A stretch of DNA of 64,000 bases from NCBI RefSeq assembly GCF_045037415.1, contig NZ_CP173438.1. The stretch is one strand, 5' to 3'. Source of the DNA: Escherichia coli (lineage in GTDB: Bacteria; Pseudomonadota; Gammaproteobacteria; Enterobacterales; Enterobacteriaceae). The notes under the pieces were generated by a model that made no database searches, was not told the DNA's origin, and worked only from the letters and a program-made list of their open reading frames with translations. This document shows positions 20,556 through 20,575 of the stretch, in pieces (within the stretch, counting starts at the first letter, position 1; every line of letters begins with the position of its first letter). Made by a program: the position numbers and the translations under genes.

Positions 20556-20575
20556 TCAGCGAAACGTTTCGCTGA
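20556..20575. promoter_or_regulatory. RbsR operator: perfect 20-bp palindrome TCAGCGAAACGTTTCGCTGA at the rbs operon 5' end
   Basis: Sequence is its own reverse complement; core CGAAACGTTTCG is a GalR/LacI-type operator; sits just upstream of rbsD. Confidence 0.75.

What the first reader, a model, noticed from the sequence alone, without database searches (positions are those of the whole stretch)
20556..20575. Perfect 20-bp palindrome at the 5' end of the rbs operon
TCAGCGAAACGTTTCGCTGA is exactly self-complementary and lies just upstream of the rbsD start codon (20544) on the operon strand. Its core CGAAACGTTTCG has the form of a LacI/GalR-family operator, and rbsR at the far end of the operon encodes such a repressor. 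A half-site-like copy, CGAAACGTTTT, is present near 20640.
Basis: partly seen in the sequence, partly recalled or inferred. Interest (0 to 1): 0.25.

Follow-up and report, generated by a model that had tools for sequence, protein, structure and literature searches.

The report
Known ribose-operon operator (rbsO) of E. coli
The 20-base palindrome is the well-known DNA site where the ribose repressor RbsR switches off the E. coli ribose operon, so the finding is correct but ordinary; the weaker upstream copy is the decayed Escherichia version of a second such site that other enteric bacteria keep intact on top of the CRP activator site.

Summary
TCAGCGAAACGTTTCGCTGA is an exact 20-bp palindrome at 20556-20575, 11 nt upstream of the rbsD ATG on the minus strand. 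The window is E. coli chromosome carrying kup and rbsDACBKR. The site is the established rbs operator, rbsO. Its sequence is contained in the 30-mer co-crystallised with RbsR (PDB 9NY7/9NY8), and the K-12 flanks match that oligo exactly.

Across 81 Enterobacteriaceae species the inner 16 bp (AGCGAAACGTTTCGCT) are essentially invariant. The outer two bases on each side vary, so the 20-bp perfection is specific to Escherichia and probably incidental.

From the conserved -10 (TAAACT) and a CRP site placed as in lac, I infer that the operator spans about -1 to +19 of the promoter. No mapped transcription start could be retrieved.

The "half-site-like copy" is real and sits inside the CRP site. In 75 non-Escherichia species this position holds a near-perfect second RbsR box (GCGAAACGTTTCGA), 78-80 bp upstream of the main operator and 10 bp from the CRP centre. 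It is probably an auxiliary operator that competes with CRP. Escherichia has two substitutions in its left half.

Verdict: already known, low interest. The second box is a modest, testable side result.

The parts
20556..20575 (.). rbsO (called O1 here): perfect 20-bp palindrome TCAGCGAAACGTTTCGCTGA, the primary RbsR operator. By inference it spans about -1 to +19 of the rbsD promoter.
   Evidence: Searches give the sequence. Searches show identity with the crystallised rbsO oligo. Searches show conservation.
20558..20573 (.). Conserved 16-bp core AGCGAAACGTTTCGCT. This is the part under selection in all 81 Enterobacteriaceae species examined.
   Evidence: mean majority fraction 1.00 over the 16 columns, against 0.73 and 0.87 for the outer bases and 0.45 for the 5 bases upstream; the same 16-mer lies upstream of rbsD in Serratia sp. 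ATCC 39006.
20551..20554 (-). Shine-Dalgarno GGAG of rbsD, directly after the palindrome.
   Evidence: Conserved at 0.95. Left unpaired in the predicted mRNA fold.
20125..20544 (-). rbsD (D-ribose pyranase, 139 aa), first gene of the operon.
20581..20586 (-). Candidate -10 hexamer TAAACT (TAAACT, TACACT or AATACT in other species). It places +1 at about 20574.
   Evidence: conservation 0.89. The transcription start is inferred, not mapped.
20604..20611 (-). Conserved block ATGGTTTT at the -35 position. It matches TTGACA poorly, as expected for a CRP-dependent promoter.
   Evidence: 0.91. One search found no consensus sigma-70 promoter.
20625..20646 (-). CRP-type site CGTTTCGAGGT|TGATCACATTT. 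The right half TCACA is perfect and the left half TTCGA matches 3 of 5. Its centre is 20635.5, which is -61.5 relative to the inferred start.
   Evidence: TCACA is invariant and always 13 nt from the O2 centre in all 81 sequences.
20639..20652 (.). It matches 10 of 14 bases of the operator core, is centred at -71.5, and overlaps the left half of the CRP site.
   Evidence: In 71 other species it reads GCGAAACGTTTCGA and in 4 it reads TCGAAACGTTTCGA.
20676..20706 (-). Intrinsic terminator of kup (stem followed by a T-run). It marks the upstream limit of the rbs control region.
14676..15668 (-). rbsR, the LacI/GalR-family repressor that binds the operator. [quoted passage not shown]
   Evidence: NF007743, 697 bits. 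(PDB 9ny7/9ny8, E = 6.5e-221).
15672..20117 (-). rbsA (18612-20117), rbsC (17642-18607), rbsB (16727-17617) and rbsK (15672-16601): the regulated transport and kinase genes.

Best explanation
The palindrome is rbsO, the operator of the E. coli rbsDACBKR operon. A dimer of the LacI/GalR-family repressor RbsR, encoded by the last gene of the same operon, binds it symmetrically. One helix-turn-helix sits on each AGCGAAAC half-site, and the hinge helices enter the minor groove at the central CG. The site lies immediately after the -10 hexamer and spans roughly -1 to +19. Bound RbsR therefore blocks RNA polymerase at initiation or promoter escape. D-ribose binds RbsR and releases it. Full expression then needs cAMP-CRP at a site centred near -61.5.

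Steps shown: identity of the sequence, of the operon and of the repressor; identity with the DNA crystallised with RbsR; strict conservation of the 16-bp core.

Steps inferred: the transcription start, and hence the exact position of the operator in the promoter; steric occlusion as the mode of repression.

The weaker upstream copy is, in other Enterobacteriaceae, a second near-perfect RbsR box that overlaps the CRP site by about 11 bp. It most likely acts as an auxiliary operator that excludes CRP. In Escherichia its left half carries two substitutions (GCG to GTA), so it is probably weakened or vestigial there.
For: - **Sequence:** exact palindrome at the stated coordinates.
- **Context:** the window is E. 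coli and the locus is kup followed by rbsDACBKR. All six products pass the NCBIfam equivalog cut-offs.
- **Direct binding:** the palindrome is contained in the rbsO 30-mer co-crystallised with RbsR at 2.1 A. In that structure the hinge helices lie in the minor groove and the DNA is bent by 45 degrees. K-12 matches the oligo exactly. PDB 9ny7/9ny8 match the window's RbsR.
- **Induction in E. coli:** ribose is listed as the inducer of E. coli RbsR, and one operator is annotated for the operon.
- **A relative:** in Serratia sp. ATCC 39006, RbsR shifts an rbsD probe carrying the same 16-mer, and 1% ribose abolishes binding.
- **Phylogenetic footprint:** the 16-bp core is invariant in 80 of 81 species while neighbouring columns fall to 0.45-0.64. 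It is present in 5409 of 5426 complete E. coli genomes. The most divergent variant sampled changes only the outermost base.
- **Promoter geometry:** from the CRP centre to the first base of the -10 hexamer is 49.5 bp, the same as in lac P1 (plus textbook lac coordinates).
- **O2:** GCGAAACGTTTCGA or TCGAAACGTTTCGA occurs in 75 of 75 non-Escherichia species, always 78-80 bp from O1, with TCACA always 13 nt from its centre. Its six left columns lie outside the CRP 22-mer and are 0.97 conserved, against 0.51 for the 16 columns further upstream. Four species carry the symmetrised perfect 14-bp palindrome TCGAAACGTTTCGA.
- **RegPrecise tally:** 17 RbsR sites in 11 Enterobacteriales regulons, so some genomes have more than one site.
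Against: - No mapped transcription start for rbsD could be retrieved. The simple promoter scan finds no consensus promoter. The -1 to +19 placement is therefore an inference.
- The primary paper (Mauzy and Hermodson 1992) is not held, so footprint details were not read.
- For O2 there is no binding evidence at all. Only one operator is annotated in E. coli. The E. coli copy is statistically unremarkable on its own. RbsR is a dimer, so looping between O1 and O2 is not expected. The right half of O2 is also constrained by CRP, which confounds its conservation.
Confidence: 0.96

Rival explanations
1. The palindrome matters mainly as RNA. It lies at the very 5' end of the rbsD mRNA and would form a stem-loop that stabilises the transcript or tunes translation. 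Repressor binding would be secondary.
For: The transcribed palindrome folds into a 7-8 bp stem with a 4-nt loop at -9.3 to -10.1 kcal/mol (z = -3.5 to -4.2). The fold leaves the Shine-Dalgarno sequence free. The rbsD mRNA is known to act as an sRNA sponge.
Against: Any transcribed palindromic operator forms such a hairpin automatically. The core never varies, so no compensatory changes exist to support an RNA structure. O2 carries the same motif 80 bp upstream, in DNA that by the inferred promoter is not transcribed, which points to a DNA-binding protein. Direct RbsR-DNA co-crystals exist. Rfam has no family in this region.
Confidence: 0.1
2. The upstream copy (20640-20650) is only the left half of the CRP site. 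Its resemblance to the operator is coincidental and no second RbsR site exists in any species.
For: It overlaps a CRP-type site with a perfect, invariant TCACA half. One operator is annotated in E. coli. The E. coli copy has 3-4 mismatches to the 14-mer core, no better than chance hits elsewhere in the window.
Against: CRP does not read the bases GCGAAAC that lie outside its 22-mer, yet they are 0.97 conserved next to columns at 0.51. The conserved left CRP half is the non-consensus TTCGA, which is exactly what the RbsR box requires. Four species symmetrised the box to a perfect 14-bp palindrome. RegPrecise counts more sites than regulons.
Confidence: 0.2
3. The palindrome is the site of another LacI-family paralogue such as PurR, which shares the AAACGTTT centre, rather than of RbsR.
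For: PurR is the closest paralogue of RbsR: second-best NCBIfam hit at 406 bits, PDB hits at about 1e-95, and paralogy described. From my own knowledge, the PurR box ACGCAAACGTTTGCGT shares the central 8 bp.
Against: The three bases flanking the centre on each side are GCG/CGC here and CGC/GCG in the PurR box, so only 10 of 16 bases match. The motif difference between RbsR and PurR is the branch-specific feature noted. RbsR was crystallised on exactly this DNA.
Confidence: 0.03
4. It is a chance palindrome or a transcription terminator hairpin for kup, with no regulatory role.
For: A 10-bp-arm palindrome appears somewhere in 64 kb of random sequence in about 6-8% of trials.
Against: The core is invariant across 81 species at a fixed position. 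No T-run follows the palindrome on either strand. The kup terminator is a separate element at 20706-20676.
Confidence: 0.01

Closest known systems
rbsO, the RbsR operator of the E. coli K-12 rbsDACBKR operon (Mauzy and Hermodson 1992; RbsR-rbsO crystal structure, PDB 9NY7/9NY8)
   Same: The 20-bp sequence is identical, as are its position before rbsD and the repressor gene. K-12 differs from the window only in one flanking base, GTGGG against GCGGG.
   Different: Nothing of substance. This is the same element in another E. coli strain.
lac operon control region (O1 at +11, auxiliary O3 at -82, CRP at -61.5)
   Same: A LacI-family operator lies just downstream of the start. CRP sits at the same distance from the -10. 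A weaker second operator-like site lies upstream near the CRP site (the lac coordinates are textbook knowledge).
   Different: RbsR is a dimer without the LacI tetramerisation helix, so a stable O1-O2 loop is not expected. O2 is centred only 10 bp from the CRP centre, against 20.5 bp in lac, so the likely mechanism is competition with CRP rather than a CRP-assisted loop. rbsO is perfectly symmetric and lacks the extra central base of lacO1.
PurR operators (pur box ACGCAAACGTTTGCGT)
   Same: The central AAACGTTT with a CpG step is shared. The repressors are paralogues, PurR having arisen from an RbsR duplication.
   Different: The three flanking specificity bases are swapped (GCG against CGC). 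PurR needs a corepressor, whereas RbsR is released by its ligand.
RegPrecise RbsR regulog for Enterobacteriales (Ravcheev et al. 2014)
   Same: It is a computational catalogue of the same motif upstream of rbs operons. It lists 17 sites in 11 regulons, so second sites were probably already recorded for some genomes.
   Different: I could not read the individual sites. Whether O2, its overlap with CRP, and its decay in Escherichia are noted there is unknown.

Membership tests
LacI/GalR-family operator: RbsR operator rbsO | Even-length palindrome of 16-20 bp with a central CpG step | tested here: met
   Perfect 20-bp palindrome centred on CG at 20566/20565.
LacI/GalR-family operator: RbsR operator rbsO | Sequence identity with DNA shown experimentally to bind RbsR | tested here: met
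   The palindrome is contained in the rbsO 30-mer crystallised with RbsR. K-12 matches that oligo exactly and the window differs by one flanking base.
LacI/GalR-family operator: RbsR operator rbsO | Cognate repressor present, and the site lies in the control region of its target operon | tested here: met
   rbsR at 14676-15668 scores 697 bits against a cut-off of 531. The site lies 11 nt before the rbsD ATG in the kup-rbsD intergenic region.
LacI/GalR-family operator: RbsR operator rbsO | Conserved upstream of orthologous operons | tested here: met
   The 16-bp core is invariant in 80 of 81 Enterobacteriaceae species, with one A-to-G change at its edge in the remaining one. The same 16-mer occurs in Serratia sp. 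ATCC 39006.
LacI/GalR-family operator: RbsR operator rbsO | Overlaps the promoter or transcription start so that the bound repressor blocks transcription | tested here: inconclusive
   The position of -1 to +19 is inferred from the conserved -10 TAAACT and the CRP spacing. No mapped start was retrievable.
LacI/GalR-family operator: RbsR operator rbsO | Ribose-sensitive binding and repression in vivo | not testable with these tools
   Literature only: ribose is listed as inducer, and a ribose-sensitive gel shift was shown in Serratia. The primary E. coli paper is not held.
Auxiliary operator (second RbsR box, O2) | Second site closely matching the primary operator in the same control region | tested here: inconclusive
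   In the window the match is only 10 of 14 core bases, no better than chance hits. In 71 other species the match is 13 of 14, and in 4 species the site is a perfect 14-bp palindrome at a fixed position.
Auxiliary operator (second RbsR box, O2) | Bound by the repressor and contributing to repression | not testable with these tools
   No binding data were found.
Class I CRP-dependent promoter | TGTGA-N6-TCACA site centred near -61.5 | tested here: inconclusive
   The site reads TTCGA-N6-TCACA. The right half is invariant in 81 species. The distance to the -10 equals that in lac. The centre at -61.5 depends on the inferred start. The operon is listed as CRP-regulated.
Rho-independent terminator | GC-rich hairpin followed by a T-run | tested here: not met
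   No T-run follows the palindrome on either strand. The scan reports only the kup terminator at 20706-20676.

The most novel reading that the evidence does not exclude
Enterobacteriaceae other than Escherichia run the rbs promoter with two RbsR operators. O1 lies over the transcription start. A conserved O2 (GCGAAACGTTTCGA) is centred about 10 bp upstream of the CRP centre, so that RbsR and cAMP-CRP would compete for the same DNA. On this reading the repressor both blocks polymerase and prevents activation. The Escherichia lineage has lost most of O2 through two substitutions in its left half, leaving the single-operator arrangement described for K-12. I found no discussion of this in the searchable literature, although RegPrecise site counts suggest the second sites were catalogued computationally.
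Probability: 0.6. Interest if true: 0.3.

Novelty: already known. Interest (0 to 1): 0.13.

Why it matters
For the finding itself, little. It re-identifies a textbook-type operator that has been characterised biochemically and now structurally. It is useful as a positive control showing that the first-stage reader can recognise real operators from sequence alone.

The side result has some value. A second RbsR box overlaps the CRP site, is strictly conserved across more than 20 genera, and has decayed in Escherichia. It suggests that the K-12 'one operator' picture is a derived state. It also offers a simple natural experiment on how repressor-activator competition is gained or lost. This may be relevant to people who use RbsR and rbsO as parts in synthetic circuits.

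Tried and rejected
- **Primary paper:** I tried to read Mauzy and Hermodson 1992 by PubMed id and by PMC id. It is not held.
- **Mapped rbsD start:** I looked in supplements of Cappable-seq, Kim et al. 2012, Thomason 2015 (not held) and Conway 2014 (no files held). Nothing was found, so the start is inferred.
- **Literature on a second RbsR site or an RbsR/CRP overlap:** searches found nothing relevant.
- **More distant taxa:** The search for homologous proteins with RbsD was meant to reach Yersinia, Vibrio and Pasteurellaceae. The 120 listed hits are all at least 82% identical, so it added nothing.
- **Promoter scan:** the simple sigma-70 scan finds no promoter. This is expected for an activator-dependent promoter and is not evidence against one.
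- **Rfam:** no family in 14000-24000.
- **Rejected explanations:** terminator (no T-run), PurR site (flanking triplets swapped), chance (cross-species invariance).
- **O1-O2 looping:** the spacing of 78-80 bp varies by 2 bp between species and is already fixed by promoter geometry. RbsR is dimeric. Looping is therefore not favoured.

Full report
**1. The observation**

Reading the minus strand gives ...TAAACTGCGGG-TCAGCGAAACGTTTCGCTGA-TGGAGAAAAAA-ATG. The 20-mer occupies 20575 to 20556 and is exactly self-complementary. The perfect arm is 10 bp and ends there. It is the only site in the 64-kb window within three mismatches of itself, and 100 shuffles gave none. It is also the longest perfect palindrome in the window; the runners-up have 7-bp arms.

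Length alone is weaker evidence than it looks. First-order Markov simulations of the window reach an arm of 10 or more in 17 of 200 runs, and the analytic expectation is 0.06. The case therefore rests on position and conservation.

The rbsD ATG is at 20544-20542, and the Shine-Dalgarno GGAG (20554-20551) abuts the palindrome. The mechanical ORF list starts rbsD at an in-frame ATG at 20556, inside the palindrome. RefSeq annotation and the NCBIfam model (139 of 139 positions) support 20544 instead.

**2. Context**

The 501 bases around the site are 100% identical to many E. coli chromosomes and are found in 5411 of 5426 complete genomes. On the minus strand the annotation reads kup, rbsD, rbsA, rbsC, rbsB, rbsK, rbsR, followed by convergent mdtD. 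All six rbs products exceed the curated cut-offs of their NCBIfam equivalog models. RbsR scores 697 bits against 531, with PurR as the next-best family. The kup terminator lies at 20706-20676, so the control region is the 166-bp intergenic stretch 20545-20710.

**3. What the palindrome is**

It is the known rbs operator. A 2025 preprint (10.1101/2025.04.02.646877) solved 2.1 A structures of RbsR with ribose and with 'its operator DNA rbsO', using the oligo 5'-GTGGGTCAGCGAAACGTTTCGCTGATGGAG-3'. The hinge helices sit in the minor groove and the DNA is bent by 45 degrees. The PDB codes are 9NY7 and 9NY8.

K-12 MG1655 matches that oligo exactly. The window differs only at one flanking base, GCGGG for GTGGG. 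The window's RbsR matches the deposited chain at E = 6.5e-221. Other papers treat RbsR as the ribose-induced repressor of rbsDACBKR with one annotated operator. In Serratia sp. ATCC 39006, RbsR shifts an rbsD probe that carries the same 16-mer, and 1% ribose abolishes binding. The primary 1992 paper could not be read.

**4. Which bases matter**

I fetched rbsD loci from 80 other Enterobacteriaceae species with 86-98% RbsD identity and aligned the upstream regions.

| Region | Mean majority fraction |
|---|---|
| Inner 16 bp, AGCGAAACGTTTCGCT | 1.00 (one A-to-G change at its edge in one species) |
| Outer two bases, left side | 0.73 |
| Outer two bases, right side | 0.87 |
| Five bases between the -10 and the operator | 0.45 |
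| Promoter spacer | 0.64 |

Only the six Escherichia sequences (the window and L002-L006) have the full 20-bp palindrome. Most other species read ...CGCTAG.

Within E. coli, a 40-mer around the site is present in 5409 of 5426 genomes and exact in 3748. The most divergent variant sampled changes the outermost T to C, which breaks the 20-bp symmetry. The functional unit is therefore the 16-bp palindrome. The extra two complementary bases have a chance probability of about 1 in 16 and look incidental.

**5. Promoter geometry (inferred)**

A conserved hexamer TAAACT (20586-20581; TACACT or AATACT elsewhere; conservation 0.89) is the best -10 candidate. A CRP-type site, CGTTTCGAGGT|TGATCACATTT (20646-20625), has an invariant TCACA half. 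Its centre at 20635.5 lies 49.5 bp from the first base of the hexamer, the same as in lac P1 (textbook coordinates).

This places +1 at about 20574, CRP at -61.5, and the operator at -1 to +19 with its centre at +9.5. The -35 position holds a conserved but poor match, ATGGTTTT. This agrees with the failure of the consensus promoter scan and with CRP dependence of the promoter. I could not retrieve a mapped start, so this step remains inference. Given the geometry, bound RbsR would block initiation or promoter escape.

**6. The upstream 'half-site-like copy'**

The copy is real: + strand CGAAACGTTTT at 20640-20650, minus strand GTAAAACGTTTCGA. On its own it is not significant in the window. It matches 10 of 14 core bases, and such hits occur at about the chance rate.

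The comparison across species changes the picture.

- Every one of the 81 sequences has a second AAACGTTT core 78-80 bp upstream of the first: 6 at 78 bp, 47 at 79 bp and 28 at 80 bp.
- TCACA lies exactly 13 nt from the centre of this second core in all 81 sequences. The CRP centre is therefore 10 bp downstream of the box centre.
- In 71 non-Escherichia species the box reads GCGAAACGTTTCGA, 13 of 14 of the operator core.
- In four species (L041, L052, L053, L059) it reads TCGAAACGTTTCGA, itself a perfect 14-bp palindrome. The left side has changed to mirror the right.
- The six left columns lie outside the CRP 22-mer and are 0.97 conserved. The 16 columns further upstream are at 0.51.

CRP does not read those left columns. 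The conserved left CRP half is the non-consensus TTCGA, which is what an RbsR box requires. The most economical reading is a second RbsR operator, O2, centred near -71.5 and sharing about 11 bp with the CRP site, so that RbsR and cAMP-CRP would exclude each other.

All Escherichia sequences carry GTA in place of GCG in the left half. These are the positions that distinguish RbsR boxes from PurR boxes. O2 is therefore probably weakened or vestigial in this window. That fits the single operator annotated for K-12.

RegPrecise tallies 17 RbsR sites for 11 Enterobacteriales regulons, so second sites have probably been catalogued computationally. I found no discussion of them in the searchable literature, and there is no binding evidence for O2.

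**7. Rivals**

- **mRNA hairpin.** The transcribed palindrome would form a 5'-terminal hairpin of -9.3 to -10.1 kcal/mol that leaves the Shine-Dalgarno sequence free. This follows automatically from a transcribed palindromic operator. The core never varies, so no covariation is available. The same motif recurs in DNA that, by the inferred promoter, is not transcribed. A selected RNA role is possible but unsupported.
- **Terminator.** Excluded, because no T-run follows on either strand.
- **PurR site.** Unlikely, because the flanking triplets are swapped.
- **Chance.** Excluded by the conservation.
- **Looping between O1 and O2.** Not favoured. RbsR is a dimer, and the spacing is already dictated by the promoter layout.

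**8. Verdict**

The element is already known, so interest is low. The one addition is the conserved second box over the CRP site and its decay in Escherichia. This is a modest hypothesis that can be tested experimentally.

Noticed in passing
window 20639-20652; loci L007-L081 about 101-116 nt upstream of rbsD: A second RbsR-type box (GCGAAACGTTTCGA) overlaps the CRP site and is conserved in 75 of 75 non-Escherichia Enterobacteriaceae species. In Escherichia it has degraded to GTAAAACGTTTCGA. Four species have the symmetrised perfect palindrome TCGAAACGTTTCGA.
   Followed up: yes
window 20554-20556: An in-frame ATG inside the palindrome gives a 143-aa ORF in the mechanical ORF list. Annotation, the Shine-Dalgarno position and the NCBIfam model all favour the ATG at 20544 (139 aa).
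   Followed up: partly
window 16622-16644 (minus strand), rbsB-rbsK intergenic region 16602-16726: A GC-rich terminator-like hairpin, GCGCCACCCTAACACGGTGGCGC followed by ATTTTAT, lies downstream of rbsB. The literature places the rbsB 3'UTR-derived sRNA sponge RbsZ in this region. Rfam gave no hit at gathering threshold.
   Followed up: partly
window 20612-20624 (minus strand CCGTAACGTCACG): A moderately conserved block (about 0.75) between the CRP site and the -35 position contains another ACGT core (GTAACGTCAC, 7 of 10 matches to GAAACGTTTC). It is not consistently conserved as a box across species and remains unexplained.
   Followed up: no
window about 27400-28300 (from L001 annotation: mioC, then the gap to mnmG): Mapping the identical reference strain's annotation onto the window puts ravA-viaA, asnA, asnC, mioC and the start of mnmG within it. 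From my own knowledge the mioC-mnmG gap is where oriC lies, so the chromosomal replication origin should be in this window. I did not examine it.
   Followed up: no
window 16556-16569: A 14-bp perfect palindrome, CAGCATTAATGCTG, lies near the 5' end of rbsK. It is one of five 7-bp-arm palindromes in the window, which is within chance expectation.
   Followed up: no
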